This document shows positions 38,909 to 52,180 of a DNA stretch of 64,000 nt, in pieces (position 1 is the first letter of the stretch; the number at the start of each line of letters is the position of its first letter). The notes under the pieces are model-generated. The model had not been told where the DNA came from. It made no database searches and saw only the letters and a program-made list of their open reading frames with translations. Source of the stretch: Pecten maximus (taxonomy: Eukaryota); the NCBI RefSeq assembly GCF_902652985.1, contig NC_047015.1:41416001-41480000 (forward strand), read 5' to 3'. The translations under genes were made by a program, and so were the position numbers.

Positions 38909-39349
38909 CTTTATCTAATTATATTTGTAAAAGTCCACACAACTTCTACATGCTGATCATATAGCTACGATCATTAATGATGTTGAAGTATAAATAAAAA
39001 TGAAGTATGTTTTTGTCGTTATAAAGTTGTCAAACGATCCACTTCAGTAGAATGTCTTCTGAAGAGAACATTCATCAATTGCAAACAAAAACACAAGTTC
39101 CTCCGTGGGGAAAGTGACGATTGCTGGTTCTGATGATGTATTGGTCGACCGTTAGTCGACACGGCTAGCTCTAGTATGGCTAACGAGAGCACATCGTATC
39201 CATTCTCACGAACACCTTTGTGTGACTGAAATAGTCATAGCAACGAGTAATTCTATACAACAAAGCGTGTAATCCTTCTATTATCATGGAAAAGTAAATC
39301 CTACATTGGAGTTAATTATTACCCTGTATACAAAGGAGATTCTTAGCCA

Positions 39350-41044
39350 CAAATGCTGTACGCTTATAACCCTGTAACAAAGGAGAATCGTAGTTACCAT
39401 ACACAATACTGTACGCTTATTACCGTGTTACAAATGAGAATCGTAGTTACCATACACAATACTGTACGCTTATTACCGTGTTACAAAGGAGAAATGTAGT
39501 TACCATACACAATACTGTACGCTTATAACCCTGTAATAGAGGAGAATCGTAGTTACCATACACAATACTGTACGCTTATTACCCTGTAACAAAGGAGAAT
39601 CGTAGTTACCATACACAATACTGTACGCTTATAACCCTGTAATAGAGGAGAATCGTAGTTACCATACACAATACTGTACGCTTATTACTGTGTAGCAAAG
39701 GAGAATCGTAGTTACCATACACAATACTGTACGCTTATAACCCTGTAACAAAGGAGAATCGTAGTTACCATACACAATACTGTACGCTTATTACCGTGTT
39801 ACAAAGGAGAATCGTAGTTACCATACACAATACTGTACGCTTATTACCGTGTTACAAAGGAGAATCGTAGTTACCATACACAATACTGTACGTTTATAAC
39901 CCTGTATCAAAGGAGAATCGTAGTTACCATACACAATACTGTACGCTTATAACCCTGTAACAAAGGAGAATCGTAGTAACCAAACACAATACTGTACGCT
40001 TATAACCATGTAACAAAGGAGAATCGTAGTTACCATACACAATACTGTACGCTTATTACCCTGTAACAAAGGAGAATCGTAGTTACCATACACATAACTG
40101 TACGCTTATTACCGTGTTATAAAGGAGAATCGTAGTTACCATACACAATACTGTACGCTTATAACCCTGTAACAAAGGAGAATCGTAGTTACCATACACA
40201 ATACTGCACGCTTATTACCGTGTTATAAAGGAGAATCGTAGTTACCATACACAATACTTTACGCTTATTACCGTGTTACAAAGGAGAATCGTAATTACCA
40301 TACACAATACTGTACGCTTATAACCCTGTAAAAAAGGAGAATCGTAGTTACCATACACAATACTGTACGCTTATTACCGTGTTACAAAGGAGAATCGTAG
40401 TTACCATACACAATACTGTACGCCTATAACCCTGTAACAAAGGAGAATCGTAGTTACCATACACAATACTGTACGCTTATTACCGTGTTACAAAGGAGAA
40501 TCGTAGTTACCATACACAATACTGTACGCCTATAACCCTGTAACAAAGGAGAATCGTAGTTACCATACACAATACTGTACGCTTATTACCCTGTAACAAA
40601 GGAGAATCGTAGTTACCACACACAATACTGTACGCTTATTACCGTGTTATAAAGGAGAATCGTAGTTACCATACACAATACTGTACGCTTATTACCGTGT
40701 TATAAAGGAGAATCGTAGTTACCATACACAATACTGTACGCTTATTACCGTTTTATAAAGGAGAATCGTAGTTACCATACACAATACTGTACGCTTATTA
40801 CCGTGTTATAAAGGAGAATCGTAGTTACCATACACAATACTGTACGCTTATTACCGTGTAACAAAGGAGAATCGTAGTTACCATACACAATACTGTACGC
40901 TTATAACCCTGTAACAAAGGAGAATCGTAGTTACCATACACAATACTGTACGCTTATTACCCTGTAACAAAGGAGAATCGTAGTTACCATACACAATACT
41001 GTACGCTTATAACCCTGTAACAAAGGAGAATCGTAGTTACCATA
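39350..41044. repeat. 53-bp minisatellite, left arm (split by the Gypsy insertion)
   Basis: Unit CATACACAATACTGTACGCTTATTACCGTGTTACAAAGGAGAATCGTAGTTAC. Confidence 0.97.
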
Positions 41045-43973
41045 TGTGGTGAACCACTGTTTTGTGTTATGTTACCTGTCGTTCCGGACTGTCCGTCTTC
41101 TACTTTGTTTATTAGTCTCGACGTCAGGTAGACGTTTGTAAGTAATATACACCTAGGAGGTTTAGAAGCGTTCTAAAGATCCTGATTTTATAATAGGTGG
41201 CGCTAGTTTCCCTTTCGCGAGAGTATAAAAGGCGGCGGTCGAAACTAGACAGCGTTCACTTCTTCGTCTGACACGAACGAGATAAGGCCGGACATTAAGG
41301 TAATAGTAAAGATATAGACGTGCCTGAACAAGGCTTCCCTATATCAAAGTACTGTATTGTGTATTTAATAACTTACGGTAGAGTACGGAGGCAGATGTGC
41401 CTGAGTAAGGCTTCCCTTCTCCGTGGGGACTCTAGTTAGTCTATGTGATCGGTACATCACATACGTTGTAAGTGTATTAATATCAATAGTCTTGGGTCTG
41501 CTCGTGGTTTATAAGAAAGTGTCTGAAAGCCCCGAGTGTTGTACTGTACGTACATGCCTAACGTTAAATATATGCTAGGGAGTGCTCAGTAAGAAGTGAG
41601 TACTCAGTGAGTGCTCGGTAGAAGTGAGTGCTCGGTAGCAGTGAGTACTCAGTGAAGTGAGCGCTCGGTAAAAGTGAGCACTCAGTCAAAGTGAGTGCTC
41701 ACTCGGTCAATGAGTGTTGAAACTCTCTTACCCTCATAGTAATTATAGTTGTATAATGTGATATTGCCCTGAATAAACCCCAGATAGGGAAGGTTCATTT
41801 AGGGAGCACTCATTATTAGCTCACCTGGTCCGAAGGACCAAGGTGAGCTTATGCCATACCGTTGCGTCCGTCGTCCGTCGTCCGTCCGTCCGTCGTCCGT
41901 CGTCCGTCCGTCCGTCAACAATTGACTTCTTCTTCATAACCACACATCAGAATTTGACCAAATTTGGTCAGAAGCATCCCTATGGGTAGGGGACTCAGAA
42001 TTGTACAAATGATGGGGCTGACCCCCTGGGGGCCTCTGGGGCGGGGCCAAAAGTGGTCATTTTTGCGCTATTGATATAAACGACTTCTTCTCTGAAACCA
42101 AGCAAAGGCTATCACTCATATTTGCCTGGTAGCATCACTATGGGGTGGGGATTCAAAATTGTACAAATGATGGGACTGACCCCCCGGGGGCCTGAGGGGC
42201 GGGGCCAAATGTGGTCAATCTGGCTATATTGATATAAATGACTTCTTCTCTGAAACCAAGCAATGGCTATCGCTCATATTTGCATGGTAGCATCATTATG
42301 GGGTGGGGATTCAAAATTGTACAAATGAGGGGGCTGACCCCCCAGGGGCCTGAGGGGCGGGGCCAAATGTGGTCAATCTGGCTATATTGATATAAACGAC
42401 TTCTTCTCTGAAACCAAGCAATGGCTATCGCTCATATTTGCCTGGTAGCATCATTATGGGGTGGGGATTCAAAATTGTACAAATGATGGGGCTGACCCCC
42501 CAGGGACCTGAGGGGTGGGGCCGAATGTGATCAATTTGGCTATATTGATATAAACGACTTCTTCTCTGAAACCGAGCAATGCCTGTCACTCATATTTGCC
42601 TGGTAGCATCACTATGGGGTTGGGATTTAAAATTGTACAAATGATGGGACTGACCCCCCCAGGGGCCTGAGGGGCGAGGCCAAATGTGGTCAATTTGGCT
42701 ATATTCATATAATTGACTTCTTCTCTGGAACCAAACAATGGATATCTGTCATATTTTACTGGTAGCATCACCTTGGGGTAGGAATTTGAAATTGTACAAA
42801 TGACGGGGCTGACCCCCTGGGGTCTGAGGGGCGGGGCCAAAAGGGGTCAGTTTTACAGAATTGATATAAACGACTTCTGCTCTGAAACTAAGCAATGGAT
42901 ATCACTCATATTTACCTGGTAGCATCCCTATGGAGTGGGGATTCAAAATTGTACAAATGGTGGGACTGACCCCCAAGGGGTCTGAGGGGCGGGGCCAAAT
43001 GTGGTCAATCTGGCTATATTGATATAAACGACTTCTTCTCTGAAACAAAGCGATGGATATCGCTCATATTTGCCTGGTAGCATCACTATGGGTTGGGGAT
43101 TCAAAATTGTACAAATGATGGGGCTGACCCCCCAGGGACCTGAGGGGCGGGGCCAAATGTGGTCAATTGGGCTATATTGATATTAGCGACTTCTTCTCTG
43201 AAACCAAGCAATGGATATTGCTCTTATTTGCCTGGTAGCATCACTATTGGGTGGGTATTCAAAATTGTACAAATGGTGAGGCTGACCCCCCGGGGGCCTG
43301 AGGGGCGGGGCCAAGAGAGGTCAATTTGGCTGAATTGATATGAACAACTTCTCTGAAACCAATTAAGCAAGGGATATCGCTCATATTTGCCTGGTAGCAT
43401 CCTTTTGGGTAGCGATTCAAAATTTTATAAAGGAAGGAACTGACCCCCACTCCCCCCGGGGTGCAGAAGGTGGGGTCAAAAGGGGTCAATTGGTTTAACA
43501 ACTTCTTTTCTGAAACTAAGCAATGGATATCACTCACATTTGTGTGGTAGCATCCCTATGGGGTTGTTCCAAAAGTTGATTTTATTTCATGGATTAATGC
43601 ATTTTTTGACATCAAATCCTCACGTAGCCATATAAAATGCCTATGATATATTGACATACATGTAGCAATACCAGTGACAAATATACTTAATCATCATTCT
43701 TGTTTCATATCTCATAAAGTCCAGGTGAGCGATACAGGCCCTCTTGGGCCTCTTGTTTCATGTAGAATATCATTCTGTTCAGAGGAACTGAGCAATCATT
43801 GTGTTATATTTCAACTGTATAGCTAGTTGGCACTTGATGTATATTACATAAACACAGCCAGGTCAGCTGTATATTTCTGTATATTTTTGCACTGAGGACT
43901 CGAGTAAAACTAATTATATGTTAGACAATATGGATCATCAGTAGTGACTGATACGAACCCTGTAAACGTCACA
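41045..43973 (+). repeat. 5' LTR (interrupted by a 1.94-kb Helentron-type insertion)
   Basis: TGTGGTGAACC...AAACGTCACA; TATAAAA at 41224, AATAAA at 41772; matches the 3' LTR apart from about 5 substitutions, 5-bp and 58-bp deletions and the insertion. Confidence 0.95.
41816..43756 (+). mobile_element. Non-autonomous Helentron (HINE) with an internal ~158-bp satellite array
   Basis: Absent from the 3' LTR; inserted in a T run without TSD; 5' TTAGCTCACCTG subTIR with stem-loop, (GTCC/GTC)n microsatellite, about 10 tandem 158-bp units, 3' CAGGTGAGCGA subTIR and AGGCCC-TCTT-GGGCCT hairpin then CTTGTT. Confidence 0.92.
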
Positions 43974-43978
43974 TAATT

Positions 43979-43993
43979 TGGTGGCAGCGGTGG
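43979..43993 (+). promoter_or_regulatory. Primer binding site complementary to tRNA-Leu(AAG/UAG) 3' end
   Basis: TGGTGGCAGCGGTGG 5 nt after the LTR; complement of ...CCACCGCTGCCACCA (metazoan tRNA-Leu, from memory). Confidence 0.85.
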
Positions 43994-44081
43994 TGATCTT
44001 GTTGTCTATATTTCTGGTGTGCTCGAATACTCAGGTTTAAATAAAATTTGATATCAGAATTAAACTGTTATTTTTGTATTG

Positions 44082-45914
44082 ATGAAAATGGCCGATGGAA
44101 CTCCTCGCATTGATTTGATGGACTCTGAAAAGCGGTTTGGTGAGCGAAGTGACCAAAGTTATCATTCAACACCAAAACAACCCATGTCAAAAGGGAGCAG
44201 TCATTATAGAGACTCTGGATTTATGTCTATGCATGCAGCTGATAAAACTCGTGCAGAAAAGAGGGACTTGTCTGTGCTCTATAGCAGTATGATGGACAAT
44301 CACGAAGATCTTTCATCTCCAGATGAGATAGATAAGGAGATCGAACAAATGCAGGAGCAGTTACGCCGGCTTGATATTGAAAATCAGAGCCTGCGAGAGA
44401 CTTCGAGTAGACATGGACTGAAGGATTCATCGACATATAAAGGGAATCATGGTGTCCGAAGTAAAACAGAGAGCAGTGCTAAAGTAAGGTTCTCTGAGAG
44501 CACATATTCGCCTCATTTTAATGAAGGGAATAAGGAGGACAATATTACCTGTCGTGACAGCAATCTGAGGAGATCAGCTCGATTAAAGGAGAAGGAACAT
44601 ACATCAAGCCATGACTCTGCTCGGGTGAAGAGAATGAATCCAAGGACAATGTTGGATATGGATGATAGTGATTACGAGGATCAATCTCCAGTAAGAAAAC
44701 ACAAAACAAAATTTGTGTCTGTTAAAGCTTCTACTTATGATGGCACAACACCCTGGAGGGATTACCTGTCTCATTTTGAGGCATGCGCTCGAATCAATAG
44801 ATGGACAGAGCAGGAGATGGGTCTGTACCTAGCTGTGAGTTTGAGGGGACAAGCTCAAGGTATACTTGGGGATTTGCCTGCCCGGAAACAGGAGCATTAT
44901 TTCTCACTGATAACGGCTCTTGAACAACGGTTTGCCCCACCCAATCAAACAGAGCTTTATCGAGTACAATTGCTGGAGAGGAGGCAGCGAGCCAATGAGA
45001 CCCTTCCAGAACTTGGTCAAGCTATTCGAAGATTAGTCAACTTGACTTATCCCACTGTTGAAGTTGGGGTGAGAGAAACATTGGCCAAACAACAGTTTCT
45101 AGAATCCCTAGCTGACTCAGATATGCGAATTCGTATAAAACAAGCCAGACCTGATAATCTGACGGATGCAATTCATCTTGCAGTGGAGCTGGAAGCTTAC
45201 AAGAAAGCAGAAAAACATGGAAGTGAAGGTCGCTCATATCTCAGAGCAGCAAGTACTGAGAGTACTGAATCGACACATTCAGCAGAATCTGAGAAATCTG
45301 CGATGGAATCTATGTTGAGTAGTATCCAGCAAAAGTTGGAGAAGATGCAAACTGATATTAGTCAGCTCCAAGCTGTAAGGAAAAAGCAGAACCGACCTGT
45401 TCAGCAAAGACAGGATGCAAAGAATAGCACTGATCGACGTTGTTATAAGTGTCAAGAAATAGGACATTTACGCCGAGACTGTCCTCAGCTTAAGAAAGAG
45501 TTAAAGAAAGCATCAACAGGAGTAGCTAATCCGGTAAGGACAAGGAAGAGGAAGCGAAGTTGTAAACCATCCGCTGGGATTGGAATTTCCTCGGCTGCTC
45601 AAGAGGCAGGGCTATACATCAATGCTGAGGTACAGCATACCAAAGTGAAACTTTTGGTTGATACTGGAGCCACAGTGACCATTCTGTCACAGGAGGCATA
45701 TGAGAAAATTCCAGAGGAGAGAAGACCCAAATTGAAAGAGGTTAAAAAGAATATCATGGCTGCTAATGGCAGTGAGTTGAAAGTCCTTGGTCAGGGAGGA
45801 TTTATGATCAAGCCAGATGGTTGCCGGGACGTGTACTTTGAGGCTGTGGTAGCCAAAATAAGCACAGAAGGAATTCTTGGTCTTGGTCTTGAAATCAAGA
45901 AATGGCATAATTGA
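44082..45914 (+). CDS. gag: Gag (capsid plus CCHC knuckle) fused in frame to aspartic protease; truncated by a frameshift near 45888
   Basis: YDGTTPWRDYLSHFE capsid-like motif, CYKCQEIGHLRRDC zinc knuckle, LVDTGAT protease active site, GILGL motif at the frameshift. Confidence 0.92.
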   Translation: MKMADGTPRIDLMDSEKRFGERSDQSYHSTPKQPMSKGSSHYRDSGFMSMHAADKTRAEKRDLSVLYSSMMDNHEDLSSPDEIDKEIEQMQEQLRRLDIENQSLRETSSRHGLKDSSTYKGNHGVRSKTESSAKVRFSESTYSPHFNEGNKEDNITCRDSNLRRSARLKEKEHTSSHDSARVKRMNPRTMLDMDDSDYEDQSPVRKHKTKFVSVKASTYDGTTPWRDYLSHFEACARINRWTEQEMGLYLAVSLRGQAQGILGDLPARKQEHYFSLITALEQRFAPPNQTELYRVQLLERRQRANETLPELGQAIRRLVNLTYPTVEVGVRETLAKQQFLESLADSDMRIRIKQARPDNLTDAIHLAVELEAYKKAEKHGSEGRSYLRAASTESTESTHSAESEKSAMESMLSSIQQKLEKMQTDISQLQAVRKKQNRPVQQRQDAKNSTDRRCYKCQEIGHLRRDCPQLKKELKKASTGVANPVRTRKRKRSCKPSAGIGISSAAQEAGLYINAEVQHTKVKLLVDTGATVTILSQEAYEKIPEERRPKLKEVKKNIMAANGSELKVLGQGGFMIKPDGCRDVYFEAVVAKISTEGILGLGLEIKKWHN

Positions 45915-47454
45915 TTTAAAACGAGGATCTTTAGTGTTGGACGACGTGCCAGTGGACACTAAGTACGAGGGTACACTTGGATGCTTTCGAGTTGTTGCCT
46001 CCGAAAAGATAACCATTCCTGGTAAGAGTGAGATGGTTATTGCTGGGGAATTACGTTCTCCATCAGGTGAACATATAAATAGCGAGTCACATCTTATTGA
46101 AGGAGCTGACTCCTTCCTGAAAAATGACAAGGCTCTCGTTGCCCGATCATTGGTTTGTTATGAGACTACAGTTCCTGTGAGACTCATGAATCTTCAGGAA
46201 GATCCGCAAACGGTCTACCCAGGTACAAATATTGCTCGTGCTAGTCCTGTAACAAGTGTCATTGAGACAACATCCTCGTCTAGTTGTGCACCCTCTGGAG
46301 AGCTCAGAGAGGATTTACATCAACTACTACTGAGGTCAAAAGAACACCTGACTCCGGAACAGAGCAATAAAGTCAAATCTTTGTTATTGGCATACAAGAA
46401 TCTGTTCGCAGCCACTGACAGTGATCTTGGACGAACAACAGTGGTGAAACACAAAATAGAAACTGGTGATGCCCGACCCATCAAACAACCACTTGAGGCA
46501 CAAGTGAACCACACAAGAGTGCCAGCACATTTGAGCCCTGAGGTGGATAGACAAGTCAATGATATGCTGGACCGTGGAGTAATTCAGAAGTCTACCAGCC
46601 CCTGGTCATCGGGTATTGTTTTAGTACAAAAGAAAGACGGTAGTCTCCGATTCTGTGTTGACTATAGGCGTCTCAATGCTGTGAGCATTCATGATGCCTA
46701 TCCATTGCCACGCATTGATGAGGCATTGGACCACTTGTCGGGGTGTACTTGGTTTTCTACACTCGACCTGAATGCAGGGTACTGGCAAGTTGAACTAGAG
46801 AGGGAGGACCGTCCTAAAACTGCCTTTTCAACTAGGACTGGATTATTTGAATTCCAGGTGATGCCTTTTGGGTTGACTTCTGCTCCAGCCACATTTGAGC
46901 GGCTTATGGAGACGGTGTTAGCCGGACTTCAGTGGCAAATTTGTCTCATTTATTTAGATGATGTGATCGTGGTTGGAAAGGATTTTGAGGACATGTTACA
47001 AAATCTGCAAACTGTGTTTGAAAGACTCCTTACTGCAGGATTGAAACTTAAAACCAAGAAATGCCAACTGTTTGGAAAAGAGGTGATCTATCTCGGACAT
47101 GTGATATCAGAGGAAGGAATAGCTACTGATAATGAAAAAGTGAAAGTTGTTGAACAGTGGCCTGTGCCGAAGAACATTAAAGAGGTGAGATCATTTCTTG
47201 GATTCTGTGGATATTACAGGAGGTTTGTAAGAAACTTTTCACATATTGCTAGCTGTCTACACCGACTGACTGAGAAAGACAGAACTTTTGAGTGGACCAA
47301 TGCCTGCCAGGAGGCATTCACCACACTAAAGCATCAGCTAATCAATGCCCCTATACTGGCCCATCCAGATTTCACACAACCGTTTATTCTGGACACTGAT
47401 GCAAGTGACAAAGCTATTGGTGCAGTTCTTTCTCAAAACATTGATGGGAACTAG
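45877..47454 (+). CDS. pol: Pol, reverse transcriptase and start of RNase H (ends at premature TAG)
   Basis: RFCVDYRRLN, LDLNAGYWQ, MPFGL, YLDD, FILDTDASD motifs. Confidence 0.93.
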   Translation: MVLVLKSRNGIIDLKRGSLVLDDVPVDTKYEGTLGCFRVVASEKITIPGKSEMVIAGELRSPSGEHINSESHLIEGADSFLKNDKALVARSLVCYETTVPVRLMNLQEDPQTVYPGTNIARASPVTSVIETTSSSSCAPSGELREDLHQLLLRSKEHLTPEQSNKVKSLLLAYKNLFAATDSDLGRTTVVKHKIETGDARPIKQPLEAQVNHTRVPAHLSPEVDRQVNDMLDRGVIQKSTSPWSSGIVLVQKKDGSLRFCVDYRRLNAVSIHDAYPLPRIDEALDHLSGCTWFSTLDLNAGYWQVELEREDRPKTAFSTRTGLFEFQVMPFGLTSAPATFERLMETVLAGLQWQICLIYLDDVIVVGKDFEDMLQNLQTVFERLLTAGLKLKTKKCQLFGKEVIYLGHVISEEGIATDNEKVKVVEQWPVPKNIKEVRSFLGFCGYYRRFVRNFSHIASCLHRLTEKDRTFEWTNACQEAFTTLKHQLINAPILAHPDFTQPFILDTDASDKAIGAVLSQNIDGN

Positions 47455-49389
47455 AGACCTATCGCATATGCAGGCCGGATGCTGACGAAATCTGAAAGGA
47501 GTTACTGTGTAACAAGAAAAGAGTTGTTAGCGGTTGTGCACTTTGTGAAACATTTCAAACACTACCTGTATGGTAGGAGGTTTACGGTGAGAACGGATCA
47601 CAGTTCTCTACGCTGGCTACTTAACTTTAAGGCGCCAGAAGGTCAAATGGCCAGATGGCTACAGGTTTTGAGTTCCTATAACATGGACATCAAACACAGA
47701 CCAGGAAGTCAGCATCGCAATGCGGATGCCTTAAGTCGGATACCATGCCGACAATGTGGGTTCGATCCCATGTGGGAGAAACGTACCGAGACGGAGACTG
47801 AAAATACTGCCATGGCATGCAGCCCCAAAACGAAGGAGGACTCGGAAGACCAAAAGTCAAAATTTGAGTCGTCAATACTTCAACAAAAGCAGGAAGATGA
47901 TGCTGATATTGCAGTAGTGTTTAAATGGGTGAGGGAAGGAGAGAAACCTCCATACAAGGAAATTGGTGACCGGAGCATAATCCTGAAAACATTATGGGCC
48001 CAATTTGAATCCCTGGTGATACATGGTGACATGTTGTATCGGAAAAACCCCAATTCAACAACAAGTCTACAAGCAATTGTTCCTGCAGCAGAAAAACGAA
48101 CAGTGTTGACCCACAGTCATGACAATCGGAGTTCTGGACACTTGGGTATAAAGAAGACTTTGGCCAAAATTCGACAAAGTTTCTATTGGCCAGGAATTCA
48201 AAACGATGTGAAACAATATGTGATCGGATGTCCTCAGTGTAGCAAACGAAAGAGTTCAAGTAAAACCAAGCGAGCCCCTATGCAGATGGTTGAGTCCGGT
48301 TTTCCAATGGAGAGGATAGCCATAGATATTATCTGTGAACTCCCAAGTACACAGCAGGGTAACCGACACATATTGGTAGTTGCGGACTACTATACCAAGT
48401 GGTTGGAGAGTTTTGCCATGCCAAACATGGAAGCACAGACTGTGGCCAAGATTCTCGTAGAGGAGGGGATAGCTAGGTTTGGTGTACCTTACAGCCTCCA
48501 TTCCGATCAGGGATCCCAATTTGAAAGTTCTCTCTTTCGGGAGATGTGCTTATTACTACAAATCAACAAAACACATACCACTCCCTATCATCCCAAATCA
48601 GATGGAATGGTAGAACGGTTCAACAAGACGCTTGTGACCATGCTGAGTGCCTTTGTAAATAACCATCAGACTGATTGGGACGAACACTTGCCATATGTAA
48701 TGATGGCGTACTGCTCAACAGAACACGAGACCACTGGAAATTCGCCTAATGCTATGATGCTAGGAAGGGAAACGAGTACTCCCCTAGACATTCAGTATGA
48801 AATGCCAAGGAATATCAAGACCATTCCTCAAAACCAATGGGCTTGGCAGTTAAAAAGTAAGATGGAAAATGCACAAGAACTGGTTAGGAAACACTCAAAA
48901 GGTGCGATGCTCCGACAAAAGCGTTATCATGACCAGAAGTTGTCTTGGACTAAGTTTGAGCCAGGTGATTCTGTCTATGTCTTCTTCCCAAATATTCCGG
49001 CTGGGACCACCCACAAGTTAGCAAGCCGATGGCGGGGACCTTTTAAGATACTCACTAGATTGACAGAGGTGACCTATAGGGTTCCGTGTGGTTATAGGGG
49101 AAAGACTCAAGTGATCCATGCTGACCGCATGAGACCGAGACACCCTCAAGTATTGCGTGGTGAAAGTAGAGCGGAAGCATTCGGACGAAAAGATGTGCAA
49201 GTTCAGGTGGATGAAACGTGTTTTGAGCAAAGTCAGAATGAGAGTGTAGAGAAAACTGAGAAAAACTTGGTGCTTGAGGAATTCGGTGAGAAATTCAGTA
49301 GTGAGAATGAGTGTGAACCTAATGGAGCAAACCCAAGGCGTACGCGACGTAATCCTCAATGGCATTCTGATTATACTTCATTCTACTAG
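47455..49389 (+). CDS. pol: Pol continuation, RNase H and integrase (same frame after the TAG)
   Basis: RPIAYAGR, ELLAVV, TDH, NADALSR; HHCC (H..GHLG..CPQC); DDE (IAID, HSDQG, MVERFN); GPF motif. Confidence 0.93.
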   Translation, partial: RPIAYAGRMLTKSERSYCVTRKELLAVVHFVKHFKHYLYGRRFTVRTDHSSLRWLLNFKAPEGQMARWLQVLSSYNMDIKHRPGSQHRNADALSRIPCRQCGFDPMWEKRTETETENTAMACSPKTKEDSEDQKSKFESSILQQKQEDDADIAVVFKWVREGEKPPYKEIGDRSIILKTLWAQFESLVIHGDMLYRKNPNSTTSLQAIVPAAEKRTVLTHSHDNRSSGHLGIKKTLAKIRQSFYWPGIQNDVKQYVIGCPQCSKRKSSSKTKRAPMQMVESGFPMERIAIDIICELPSTQQGNRHILVVADYYTKWLESFAMPNMEAQTVAKILVEEGIARFGVPYSLHSDQGSQFESSLFREMCLLLQINKTHTTPYHPKSDGMVERFNKTLVTMLSAFVNNHQTDWDEHLPYVMMAYCSTEHETTGNSPNAMMLGRETSTPLDIQYEMPRNIKTIPQNQWAWQLKSKMENAQELVRKHSKGAMLRQKRYHDQKLSWTKFEPGDSVYVFFPNIPAGTTHKLASRWRGPFKILTRLTEVTYRVPCGYRGKTQVIHADRMRPRHPQVLRGESRAEAFGRKDVQVQVDETCFEQSQNESVEKTEKNLVLEEFGEKFSSENECEPNGANPRRTRRNPQWHSDYTSFY

Positions 49390-49445
49390 AATGGTCACTA
49401 CTGTTTAGTGAACTACCTCTCTTTGTCATTGCAGACATCCCCAGA

Positions 49446-50153
49446 ATGGTTAAGACTAAGACAACTCCCGTCAAACAGTGCCCTATGTGTTCCTTCCGTG
49501 CCAACAACATGGATGACATGAGGAAGCATATCCTGGAGTGTGGCCTAGAGACAATGGAAAGGAAGACTCTCACGTGCCCTGATTGCAGCTACAAAACTTT
49601 CCGTGCTGCTAATATGAATCGGCACCGTAAACGTCATACTGACAACGACAGGAGTGCTCCCAAGGCTGTGGAACAGAGTTTGGAGGAAAACCGGCCTTCA
49701 ACGTCATCCCAAGCTCCCGCTGTACAAACTGATGTAGAGAGCTGGAAGGCGCAGGATCCTGGTGACCTCCTGGGGGAGATATCGGAATCTTCTGAGGGTA
49801 ATGGCTTGTCTTCTGAAGATGAGGGAGACAGTCTTCTGGTCGGGCGTACTATCAGAAGACCAACGCGACCAGAACCAGTTCGAGCCCCAAAGAGGAAGTC
49901 AGAAACTGCAACTTTAGTCAAGCCCCATCCGAAGGATCCTATCAACATGGTTCCAATGCCAGTGGTAAGCACTGCCCCAAGTGCAAAGAAAACATGCAAC
50001 TACGTTAATGTTGCCACTCAGACAGAGCAAGAGCCGCCTGCTAGCCGAAGGACTGTAACGAAGACTACCCGGTATTCAGAGGGAGGACGGGACATCCAGA
50101 TAGTCGAGTTTTTCGAGTTCTTTGAGCAGGAGAACCTCAATCGCTTTTCCTAA
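49446..50153 (+). CDS. Gypsy ORF3: 235-aa protein with tandem C2HC and C2H2 zinc fingers, basic patch and TQT motif
   Basis: CPMC-x12-H-x3-C and CPDC-x12-H-x3-H; agaATGG Kozak; acceptor ctctctttgtcattgcAG at 49434; AATAAA at 50177; intact ORF between pol and the 3' LTR. Confidence 0.85.
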   Translation: MVKTKTTPVKQCPMCSFRANNMDDMRKHILECGLETMERKTLTCPDCSYKTFRAANMNRHRKRHTDNDRSAPKAVEQSLEENRPSTSSQAPAVQTDVESWKAQDPGDLLGEISESSEGNGLSSEDEGDSLLVGRTIRRPTRPEPVRAPKRKSETATLVKPHPKDPINMVPMPVVSTAPSAKKTCNYVNVATQTEQEPPASRRTVTKTTRYSEGGRDIQIVEFFEFFEQENLNRFS

Positions 50154-50245
50154 ATCGATTTTCATGTAACTTCCTGAATAAACCTTTGAGTGTTAGTTAT
50201 TGTTTTAGCTTTACTTATGTTAGGACGTGAGGACACGTGTTGCTC

Positions 50246-50259
50246 GGAGGCGTGGGTAG
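50246..50259 (+). promoter_or_regulatory. Polypurine-tract position (imperfect PPT)
   Basis: GGAGGCGTGGGTAG directly before the 3' LTR. Confidence 0.7.
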
Positions 50260-51311
50260 TGTGGTGAACCACTGTTGTGTGTTATGTTACCTGTCGTTCC
50301 GGACTGTCCGTCTTCTACTTTGTTTATTAGTCTCGACGTCAGGTAGACGTTTGTAAGTAATATACACCTAGGAGGTTTAGAAGCGTTCTAAAGATCCTGA
50401 TTTTATAATAGGTGGCGCTAGTTTCCCTTTCGCGAGAGTATAAAAGGCGGCGGTCGAAACTAGACAGCGTTCACTTCTTCGTCTGACACGAACGAGATAA
50501 GGCCGGACATTAAGGTAATAGTAAAGATATAGACGTGCCTGAACAAGGCTTCCCTATATCAAAGTACTGTATTGTGTATTTAATAACTTACGGTAGAGTA
50601 CGGAGGCAGATGTGCCTGAGTAAGGCTTACCTTCTCCGTGGGGACTCTAGTTAGTCTATGTGATCGGTACATCACATACGTTGTAAGTGTATTAATATCA
50701 ATAGTCTTGGGTCTGCTCGTGGTTTATAAGAAAGTGTCTGAAAGCCCCGAGTGTTGTACTGTACGTACATGCCTAACGTTAAATATATGCTAGGGAGTGC
50801 TCAGTAAGAAGTGAGTACTCAGTGAGTGCTCGGTAGAAGTGAGTGCTCGGTAGCAGTGAGTACTCAGTGAAGTGAGCGCTCGGTAAAAGTGAGCACTCAG
50901 TCAAAGTGAGTGCTCATTCGGTCAATGAGTGTTGAAACTCTCTTACCCTCATAGTAATTATAGTTGTATAATGTGATATTGCCCTGAATAAACCCCAGAT
51001 AGGGAAGGTTCATTTTGGTCAGGGAGCACTCATTATTTCATGTAGAATATCATTCTGTTCTGTTAATATAAATAACTCTCTGTTTAGGTATATTTGTATT
51101 TATACTGTAGGATTACTCAGAGGAACTGAGCAATCATTGTGTTATATTTCAATTGTATAGCTAGTTGGCACTTGATGTATATTACATAAACACAGCCAGG
51201 TCAACTGTATATTTCTGTATATTTTTGCACTGAGGACTCGAGTAAAACTAATTATATGTTAGACAATATGGATCATCAGTAGTGACTGATACGAACCCTG
51301 TAAACGTCACA
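50260..51311 (+). repeat. 3' LTR, 1052 bp, uninterrupted
   Basis: TGTGGTGAACC...AAACGTCACA; AATAAA at 50987. Confidence 0.96.
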
Positions 51312-52180
51312 CATACACAATACTGTACGCTTATTACCGTGTTATAAAGGAGAATCGTAGTTACCATACACAATACTGTACGCTTATTACCGTGTTATAA
51401 AGGAGAATCGTAGTTACCATACACAATACTGTACGCTTATTACCGTGTTACAAAGGAGAATCGTAGTCACAATACACAATACTGTACGCTTATTACCGTG
51501 TTACAAAGGAGAATCGTAGTTACCATACACAATACTGTACGCTTATAACCCTGTAACAAAGGAGAATCGTAGTTACCATACACAATACTGTACGCTTATT
51601 ACCCTGTAACAAAGGAGAATCGTAGTTACCATACACAATACTGTACGCTTATTACTGTGTAACAAAGGAGAATCGTAGTTACCATACACAATACTGTACG
51701 CTTATTACCCTGTAACAAAGGAGAATCGTAGTTACCATACACAATACTGTACGCTTATTACCGTGTTACAAAGGAGAATCGTAGTTACCATACACAATAT
51801 TGTACGCTTATAACCCTGTAACAAAGGAGAATCGTAGTTACCATACACAATACTGTACGCTTATTACCGTGTAACAAAGGAGAATCGTAGTTACCAAACA
51901 CAATACTGTACGCTTATCACCGTGTTACAAAGGAGAATCGTAGTTACCATACACAATACTGTACGCTTATAACCTTGTAAAAAAGGAGAATCGTAGTTAC
52001 CATACACAATAGTGTACGCTTATAACCCTGTAACAAAGGAGAATCGTAGTTACCATACACAATACTGTACGCTTATAACCCTGTAACAAAGGAGAATCGT
52101 AGTTACCATACACAATACTGTACGCTTATTACCGTGTAACAAAGGAGAATCGTACTTATCATACACAATGCTGGACGCTA
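51312..52180. repeat. 53-bp minisatellite, right arm
   Basis: Same unit resumes in register after the duplicated CATA. Confidence 0.97.

What the first reader, a model, noticed from the sequence alone, without database searches (positions are those of the whole stretch)
41578..41720. Array of eight phased GAGYRCTC palindromes in the LTR: candidate target of the ORF3 zinc fingers
Seen: GAG(T/C)(G/A)CTC at 41580, 41598, 41609, 41626, 41643, 41659, 41676, 41693 (mostly 16-18 bp apart; consensus AGTGAGYRCTCRGT), a ninth at 41804, and the same array in the 3' LTR (about 50795-50930). The central two bases vary while the GAG/CTC arms are invariant, as expected for sites of a dimeric binder. Inference: with ORF3 this could be a self-regulating operator/enhancer. 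Alternative: the embedded GTGAGT hexamers are U1 snRNP sites that act as donors or modulate use of the AATAAA 70 nt downstream.
Basis: partly seen in the sequence, partly recalled or inferred. Interest (0 to 1): 0.75.

Follow-up and report, generated by a model that had tools for sequence, protein, structure and literature searches.

The report
Retrotransposon's own zinc-finger binding array
A jumping gene in a scallop genome carries a row of repeated palindromic DNA sites and also encodes a small zinc-finger protein that looks built to bind them as a pair, and two related elements carry differently shaped sites, which suggests that each family regulates itself with a private switch; binding has not been tested.

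Summary
The array is real: eight GAGYRCTC cores 11-18 bp apart plus a ninth, in both LTRs of a young Gypsy element, probably in Pecten maximus. Each LTR has 9 sites against 0.05 expected.

(1) ORF3 finger 2 has the helix R-x-x-N-x-x-R, the engineered GAG-reading pattern, and is conserved in a large ORF3 family; finger 1 is acidic and variable.
(2) A predicted homodimer forms through finger 1 and the linker (0.58 against best control 0.03), leaving finger 2 free.
(3) The only two relatives with both ORF3 and LTR in hand carry their own dyads. L012 has GAGY-N-RCTC x3 with a similar helix; L050 has GARGC-NNN-GCYTC x5 with a changed helix. No LTR holds another's motif.
(4) Half-site spacing (0, 1, 3 bp) runs with linker length (11, 10, 6 aa).

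RNA folding is no better than permuted arrays, and U1-like hexamers are not conserved. Binding, expression and the sign of regulation are untested, n is 3, and CpG decay can explain the variable centre. My literature searches found no report of this.

The parts
41045..43973 (+). 5' LTR (TG...CA), interrupted by an insertion and lacking 5 bp and 58 bp relative to the 3' LTR
   Evidence: 5 mismatches in 991 aligned columns against the 3' LTR; 4-bp target duplication CATA at 41041-41044 and 51312-51315
41224..41230 (+). Candidate TATA box of the 5' LTR (3' copy at 50439)
   Evidence: relatives have a TATA-like box 75-80 nt before a donor-like site; function inferred
41300..41305 (+). Candidate splice donor after a short first exon
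   Evidence: the matching site is the top-scoring donor in the L012, L050 and L085 LTRs but only joint second here; no spliced contig seen
41580..41700 (.). Array of eight GAGYRCTC palindromes in a roughly 17-bp unit (5' LTR)
41712..41719 (.). Degenerate in-register unit GAGTGTTG
41772..41777 (+). AATAAA, candidate poly(A) signal (3' copy at 50987)
   Evidence: the L012 LTR has no AATAAA or ATTAAA
41804..41811 (.). Ninth, isolated GAGCACTC site; its flanks (GTCAGGGAGC and CTCATT in the 3' LTR copy) recur in the L012 LTR
41818..43755 (+). Later insertion into the 5' LTR: GTCC microsatellite plus ten 158-bp repeats (resembles bivalve Helitron-derived non-autonomous elements; label recalled)
43979..43993 (+). 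Primer-binding site (tRNA-Leu type; label recalled)
   Evidence: the same or a near-identical site follows the LTR in L012, L050 and L085
44064..49389 (+). gag-protease, RT-RNase H and integrase; this copy is broken by a frame change near 45,880 and a stop at 47,452-47,454
49414..49434 (+). Pyrimidine tract plus CAG just before the ORF3 start: candidate splice acceptor
   Evidence: the same arrangement in L012 and L050
49446..50153 (+). ORF3, 235 aa, open: finger 1 (C2HC, 49479-49541), linker helix, finger 2 (C2H2, 49575-49637, helix RAANMNR), acidic Ser-rich middle, TQT motif, C-terminal beta hairpin
   Evidence: 99% identical to Pecten maximus proteins
50247..50259 (+). Polypurine tract, near-identical in L012, L050 and L085
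50260..51311 (+). 3' LTR, 1052 bp
50795..50915 (.). Same eight-site array in the 3' LTR; ninth site at 51024-51031

Best explanation
The array is an operator or enhancer for the element's own ORF3 protein. SHOWN: the array, its place in both LTRs about 350-590 nt downstream of a TATA-like box, the ORF3 family and its conservation pattern, and family-specific dyads in two relatives. PREDICTED: ORF3 dimerises through finger 1 and the linker helix. INFERRED: each finger 2 reads one GAG(Y) half-site. A finger's N-terminus points to the 3' end of its triplet (recalled), so the two finger-1 modules meet over the centre of GAG-YR-CTC, as a head-to-head palindrome requires. The linker sets the half-site spacing. 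Several dimers load on the array, which was amplified by tandem duplication, and this gives an element-specific switch that ignores isolated host sites. ORF3 is probably made from a spliced message (LTR donor to the acceptor before its ATG). Given binding, my odds on the outcome are: activation or positive feedback through the acidic middle region about 45%, autorepression about 30%, protection from host silencing about 25%.
For: Finger-2 helix RAANMNR has R-1, N3 and R6, as in the GAG module RSDNLAR (PMC3607563 Table 2). Among 65 finger-2 helices read from the 67-row family alignment, position 6 is R in 62, position -1 is K/R in 61 and position 3 is N in 37. Finger 1 (53 read) has E or D at position 2 in 35 and no conserved basic contact position. 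Homodimer of residues 1-72: score 0.58 against best control 0.03, runs share at least 93% of contacts, pLDDT at least 80; interface residues 8-14, 25-41, 48, 50 and 52, none in the helix 53-59. The mark was reached by 21 of 30 microbial pairs and 0 of 23 single chains; in eukaryotes by 17 of 29 pairs (animals 7 of 16), only 1 of 7 with no older solved relative, and 0 of 30 single chains. Window, L012 and L050 form one clade (SH 100). Counts of GAGYRCTC / GAGY-N-RCTC / GARGC-NNN-GCYTC are 9/0/0, 0/3/0 and 0/0/5 in their LTRs. An unbiased dyad scan ranks each motif first in its own segment, scoring 18.3, 5.2 and 14.5 against shuffle maxima of 4.0, 4.1 and 4.3. L012's three sites are dispersed, not tandem (shuffle mean 0.03, 0 of 1000), and are the best three of eight short local matches between the two LTRs. 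L012 keeps K-1/N3/R6; L050 has T-1/Y3/Q6. Linkers of 11, 10 and 6 aa go with spacers of 0, 1 and 3 bp.
Against: No binding or expression data. Only three ORF3-plus-LTR pairs could be obtained, so the covariation is not statistical. The dimer pass may come from memory of solved zinc-finger pairs; the alignment was not used and zinc lay outside the calibration. The L050 helix cannot be decoded reliably. L085, a clade LTR whose ORF3 was not seen, has none of the three dyads. L029, a distant Gypsy with no ORF3 seen and a truncated integrase, has GAGY-NN-RCTC in a near-perfect 28-bp tandem at both LTR-like ends, so such dyads can occur without a visible ORF3. Of 16 segments from zinc-finger-ORF elements, only 3 pass a post-hoc array criterion. 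No spliced joint was listed, and one contig of unknown run type runs unspliced across the acceptor.
Confidence: 0.65

Rival explanations
1. Enhancer array for host transcription factors. Each unit holds TGAGTG/AAGTG-type words (NK-homeodomain-like or zeste-like; recalled), and ORF3 does something else, such as protein or ubiquitin binding.
For: LTRs commonly collect host factor sites, and the gypsy insulator is a bound array just inside the element (recalled, not looked up). The best fold matches to ORF3 were the TAX1BP1 UBZ tandem, though weak (E 0.06).
Against: Relatives change the spacer and the half-site, which one host dimer would not be expected to follow; the hosts of L012 and L050 were not established, so this is not decisive. 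The GAG arms match the element's own conserved finger.
Confidence: 0.13
2. Neutral minisatellite. A 17-bp unit was duplicated by slippage, and the YR centre is CpG decay (CG to TG, CA or TA).
For: TRF finds a 17-bp period with 5.6 copies. All four centres are the outcomes CpG decay would give. Tandem arrays with chance dyads are common in other segments (L029, L088, L127, L146, L147).
Against: The ninth site and L012's three sites are not tandem. Arms are more conserved than flanks (2 of 54 against 13 of 63). At the second CpG (last C of the core plus the next base) the eight cores show CA x5, CG x3 and no TG. The LTR is not CpG-depleted (observed/expected 0.87 against 0.56 inside). Decay may still explain the centre even if the arms are selected.
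Confidence: 0.1
3. RNA structure. The palindromes pair with each other in the transcript, forming hairpins or a dimerisation signal, perhaps bound by ORF3 as RNA.
For: The array folds at -65.1 kcal/mol, z=-7.4 against dinucleotide shuffles. It probably lies in the transcribed part of the LTR. L012 sites 2 and 3 are exact reverse complements.
Against: Folding is no better than arrays with permuted centres (255 of 300 as stable or more) or permuted cores and spacers (174 of 300). In L050 the degenerate pair is A.C in 5 units and G.U in 0 of 11, the opposite of what a hairpin favours. No Rfam match.
Confidence: 0.07
4. U1 snRNP sites (GTGAGT) that modulate use of the AATAAA downstream, as the major donor does in foamy viruses.
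For: Five GTGAGT hexamers lie in the array upstream of an AATAAA. A precedent exists for a donor upstream of the poly(A) signal in both LTRs (PMC3694450, abstract).
Against: None has G at -1, and the best scores 7.5 of 11, like four unrelated GT sites. The L012 and L050 dyads carry no GTGAGT. The idea does not explain the CTC arm. L012's LTR has no AATAAA or ATTAAA.
Confidence: 0.05

Closest known systems
VANC proteins of Arabidopsis VANDAL transposons (PMC5735166; abstract and passages read)
   Same: An element-encoded protein binds a short motif that is dense in non-coding tandem repeats of its own family; protein and motif diverge together between families.
   Different: DNA transposon in plants; non-palindromic 9-mer in direct arrays; VANC causes demethylation.
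Accessory regulators of complex retroviruses (Tat, Tax, foamy-virus Tas; Tat as accessory factor from a PMC7264820 passage; mechanisms recalled)
   Same: An extra ORF between pol and the 3' LTR, probably spliced, proposed to act on the element's own LTR.
   Different: Tat binds RNA and Tax works through host CREB; Tas binds DNA but is not a C2H2 finger (all recalled). No family-level sequence match was found.
Additional ORFs between pol and the 3' LTR in plant Gypsy elements (PMC7264820, passages)
   Same: Same position; a regulatory role is suspected.
   Different: Functions unknown; 'zinc finger' and 'DNA-binding' occur 0 times in that review, and no target site appeared in the passages shown.
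Drosophila gypsy insulator bound by Su(Hw), and GAGA factor (both recalled; not looked up)
   Same: An array of zinc-finger sites downstream of the promoter in a Gypsy element; a single GAG-reading finger plus an oligomerisation module binding clustered sites.
   Different: Those proteins are host-encoded and bind non-palindromic sites; here the candidate reader is carried by the element.

Membership tests
Ty3/Gypsy LTR retrotransposon | gag, then protease-RT-RNase H-integrase order | tested here: met
Ty3/Gypsy LTR retrotransposon | TG...CA LTRs, PBS, PPT, target-site duplication | tested here: met
Named mollusc Gypsy clade (MolGy, Mag lineage) | RT/RNase H placement among reference elements | not testable with these tools
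   No reference elements were at hand; the tree holds only fetched loci; supplements of PMC6238403 were listed but not opened
DNA-binding classical C2H2 finger (finger 2) | C-x2-C-x12-H-x3-H with conserved base-contacting residues at -1, 3 and 6 | tested here: met
   Pfam zf-H2C2_5 above its cut-off; helix census
DNA-binding classical C2H2 finger (finger 2) | Measured sequence-specific DNA binding | not testable with these tools
   needs EMSA or SELEX
Canonical tandem C2H2 array (both fingers reading adjacent triplets) | Short TGEKP-type linker and base-reading helix in each finger | tested here: not met
   11-residue helical linker; acidic, variable finger-1 helix; C2HC ligands
UBZ ubiquitin-binding finger (finger 1) | Significant sequence or fold match | tested here: inconclusive
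   best Foldseek rank but E 0.06; no UBZ family listed in the Pfam scan
VANC-type anti-silencing system | Family-specific short motif dense in the element's non-coding repeats | tested here: met
   (three elements)
VANC-type anti-silencing system | VANC protein homology | tested here: not met
   ORF3 hits only zinc-finger families at or near cut-off
VANC-type anti-silencing system | Loss of silencing marks caused by the protein | not testable with these tools
   needs expression in cells
Known structured RNA family | Rfam match | tested here: not met
   0 matches to E 1 over 50200-51400

The most novel reading that the evidence does not exclude
A large lineage of bivalve Gypsy elements are 'complex' retrotransposons that encode their own dimeric zinc-finger transcription factor. 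Each family has evolved a private operator: the finger-2 helix sets the half-site and the finger-1 linker sets the spacing. The family's linkers fall mainly into classes of 6, 10 and 11 aa (16, 13 and 17 of 51 read), predicting spacers of 3, 1 and 0 bp. Other zinc-finger ORFs sit after pol in the wider lineage (all 19 such rows lie in one 50-row fork), some with their own LTR arrays (L111, L089, L090). This would make self-encoded transcription control a lineage-wide trait and a source of new zinc-finger genes and ready-made site arrays for the host.
Probability: 0.45. Interest if true: 0.85.

Novelty: new variant of a known kind. Interest (0 to 1): 0.74.

Why it matters
LTR retrotransposons are generally taken to depend on host factors for transcription, and the extra ORFs some carry have no known function (PMC7264820 passages). 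A Gypsy lineage with its own sequence-specific factor and co-evolving LTR operators would be a retrotransposon counterpart of complex retroviruses and an animal parallel to plant VANC. It would reverse the usual picture of zinc fingers as host weapons against transposons. It also supplies natural matched pairs of one finger and one site, with spacing set by a dimer linker, which can be tested directly. These ORFs are now annotated as uncharacterised or REST-like host genes in scallop and oyster.

Tried and rejected
No host genome is held, so copy-to-copy conservation of the array could not be measured.

Searches for relatives that gave nothing usable:
- Viral contigs: ORF3 and integrase queries found no true relative; one search gave one locus matching only the finger (L011). 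The 10 loci from the palindrome pattern are simple tandem repeats with no Gypsy protein match. The 4 PPT-pattern loci have none either.
- No new ORF3-family locus in 251, 122, 45 and 3 further genomes.
- L036 is a deletion join holding only an ORF3 fragment; L062 is a bacterial chance match.

Read data, contigs only: contigs from one RNA run, one guessed-RNA run and one run of unknown type cover ORF3 through the LTR. They cannot show transcription, ends or levels. 190 differences and 7 joints were not displayed, so nothing is concluded on variation within the array or on splicing.

Control panel (72 segments, most not verified as whole LTRs). With a criterion chosen after seeing the data (score 8 or more, flank identity 0.5 or less), 3 of 16 zinc-finger segments pass, against 1 of 43 segments with no ORF3 or a TatD ORF. 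L012 itself falls below that threshold. 13 segments (9 short contigs, 3 scored by eye, 1 unlabelled) were left out of that count. This is a weak control. L020, which has zinc-finger ORF and gag on one contig, showed no clear array.

Rejected by eye against recalled consensus sequences: p53, HSE, MRE, AP-1 and Su(H) sites, because the cores do not fit. Helical phasing was rejected. The IQ-TREE run did not finish; FastTree was used on 92 of 93 rows. Foldseek gave no match at E 0.001 or better. The protein atlas gave unnamed or generic zinc-finger clusters. Three look-ups of earlier findings were empty.

Full report
OBSERVATION. GAGYRCTC occurs 21 times in the window against 1.70 expected, and 18 of the 21 are in the two LTRs. 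Each LTR has 9 against a shuffle mean of 0.05; spacer variants of 1, 2 and 3 bp occur 0 times. The unit is about 17 bp. Spacing does not place the sites on one face of the helix. A degenerate unit follows in register. Counting it, arms deviate at 2 of 54 positions, centres at 5 of 18 and flanks at 13 of 63.

THE ELEMENT. It is a Gypsy LTR retrotransposon from 41045 to 51311 with a CATA target duplication. The 5' copy is split by a 1.9-kb insertion and differs from the 3' copy by 5 mismatches in 991 columns and two deletions, so the insertion event is young. Gag, protease, RT, RNase H and integrase are present, but the frame is broken in two places. ORF3 is open and 99% identical to Pecten maximus proteins. 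Close relatives occur as multi-copy annotated proteins in Mizuhopecten and Argopecten, and more distant ones in Pinctada, Ostrea and Mytilus. In LTR coordinates the order is TATA-like box 180, donor-like site 256, array 536-656, AATAAA 728, ninth site 765. The array therefore probably lies downstream of the start site; this is inferred, and a second TATA-like word at 808 is missing from the 5' LTR copy.

THE PROTEIN. A profile search gave 332 hits at E 0.001 or better. Of the 150 listed, I chose 67 rows by length and finger layout, including the seed proteins, as the ORF3 family. Finger 2 is a C2H2 finger with R at position 6 in 62 of 65 helices read, K/R at -1 in 61, and N, D or Y at 3 in 37, 14 and 11. 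Finger 1 is C2HC with an acidic, variable helix. The window's helix RAANMNR shares -1, 3 and 6 with the engineered GAG module RSDNLAR (PMC3607563, Table 2 row seen; passages of PMC5260015 agree). AlphaFold continues the finger-1 helix through the linker (22-39) and adds a C-terminal hairpin (200-227) after a low-confidence acidic middle. Two copies of residues 1-72 are predicted to pair: score 0.58, best of 3 controls 0.03, contact agreement at least 93%, pLDDT at least 80. The interface is finger 1 plus linker and leaves the finger-2 helix out. The mark was reached by 21 of 30 microbial pairs and 0 of 23 single chains, and by 17 of 29 eukaryotic pairs but only 1 of 7 with no older solved relative, so a pass from memory is possible. 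By the usual antiparallel finger orientation (recalled), N-terminal dimerisation suits two GAG triplets facing each other across a short centre.

RELATIVES WITH DNA. Two were obtained. They form a three-member clade with the window's element (SH 100) and share its PPT, PBS and acceptor-like tract before ORF3. L012 (pol 52-54% identical, ORF3 31%, helix KSSNLTR, linker 10) has three GAGY-N-RCTC sites, against a shuffle mean of 0.03. They are dispersed, and the best three of eight short local matches between the two LTRs are at these sites. L050 (integrase 52%, ORF3 homologous at HHalign probability 98.9; helix TRKYYMQ, linker 6) has 5 exact GARGC-NNN-GCYTC sites, and 12 in all with up to 2 mismatches, many at a 15-16-bp period, again downstream of a TATA-like box and donor. 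The cross-table is diagonal: 9/0/0, 0/3/0 and 0/0/5. A scan told nothing about the motifs ranks each first in its own segment. So where the finger keeps N3/R6 the half-site stays GAGY and only the spacing shifts; where the finger changes, the half-site changes. This is three points, not a statistic.

RESULTS AGAINST. L085, a clade LTR with no ORF3 in view, has none of the three dyads. L029, distant and with no ORF3 in view, has a GAGY-NN-RCTC dyad inside a near-perfect 28-bp tandem. In the wider panel most zinc-finger-ORF segments show no palindromic array: 3 of 16 pass a post-hoc criterion, against 1 of 43 others, and most segments are partial. Read data showed no spliced joint. CpG decay reproduces all four centre types and cannot be excluded for the centre.

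RIVALS. The strong RNA fold (z -7.4) follows from any string of palindromes: permuted arrays fold as well or better in 255 of 300 and 174 of 300 trials. L050's degenerate pair is A.C 5 times and G.U never in 11 units. U1 control of polyadenylation has a precedent in foamy viruses (PMC3694450, abstract only), but the hexamers are unremarkable here and absent from the relatives' dyads. A host factor remains possible. A neutral minisatellite does not explain the dispersed conserved sites.

MECHANISM. Most likely (0.65), ORF3 dimers bind the array through finger 2 and control the element's own promoter. The sign is open; activation is slightly favoured by the acidic middle region (15 D/E in residues 67-130) and its conserved W-x-DPG motif (48 of 67 rows).

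COMPARISON AND NOVELTY. It works most like the VANC/VANDAL pairs (PMC5735166, abstract and passages) and sits where retroviral accessory genes sit (PMC7264820, passages). It is a member of neither. Five searches for a zinc-finger accessory ORF or self-binding factor in LTR retrotransposons (listings only) showed no such report. The mollusc LTR survey PMC6238403 has 0 occurrences of 'zinc finger', 'ORF3' or 'additional ORF' in its main text; its supplements were listed but not opened and may name the clade. In the annelid survey PMC8220671 'zinc' occurs 0 times (passages). Subscription journals and Repbase entries are not in the library and may already note the ORF. Verdict: real feature, interpretation supported by inference, new variant of a known kind, interest 0.74.

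Noticed in passing
L028, L032, L125-L128, L130-L132, L137: A subclade of Gypsy elements carries a large post-pol ORF with a TatD DNase domain (10 of the 36 ORFs scanned). A paper search for TatD, LTR retrotransposon and Gypsy together returned 0 papers.
   Followed up: partly
L020, L021, L052, L089, L090, L094, L098, L102, L108-L111, L114, L115, L117, L119: Other Gypsy families have different C2H2-finger ORFs after pol. All lie with the window's element in one 50-row fork (SH 92); none of the other 42 rows has one, though many of those contigs are short.
   Followed up: partly
L111, 5397-5560 in the element's orientation: LTR array of GGAG-N7-CTCC dyads (mostly GAGC-N5-RCTC) upstream of a TATA-like box, in an element with an unrelated zinc-finger ORF (helix TRFSLKR).
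   Followed up: partly
L089 1-130 and L090 1990-2190, element orientation: The ORF fingers have RQDNYQR and RADNYQR (GAG-type code), and the LTR parts hold direct repeats rich in GAG/CTC.
   Followed up: no
L105:7326-9089: Post-pol ORF with a finger-like N-terminus and a BTB/POZ domain.
   Followed up: no
window 50010-50030 (ORF3 residues about 189-194): A VATQTE motif; a QT-type motif occurs in 51 of 67 family rows by a loose pattern. It resembles the dynein light chain LC8-binding motif (recalled), which would favour dimer formation.
   Followed up: no
L012 3308-3328 and 4901-4921: A 21-nt inverted repeat (95%) between the end of pol and the LTR; no counterpart longer than 11 nt in the window's element.
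   Followed up: partly
window 46255-49548: A natural internal-deletion form joining pol to the ORF3 linker, and so lacking finger 1, appears in three of the four runs, including the DNA run.
   Followed up: no
window 50177-50182: A second AATAAA right after the ORF3 stop; all four runs read ATTAAA there. ORF3 may have its own poly(A) signal.
   Followed up: no
L050 (G004:C1091): ORF3 is in frame with pol with no stop between them, yet keeps an acceptor-like tract before its ATG.
   Followed up: no
L085 (G001:C158): A clade LTR with repeated GAWTCC-like words (seen by eye, not counted against shuffles) in a deletion derivative; its ORF3 was not seen.
   Followed up: no
G001, G004 and other genome contigs records: Bacterial species-representative genomes hold many animal Gypsy contigs (176 integrase matches in G004), which points to host contamination.
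   Followed up: partly
window 39316-41044 and 51312-52179: The element sits in a 53-bp tandem array; 27-bp and 32-bp arrays lie elsewhere in the window.
   Followed up: no
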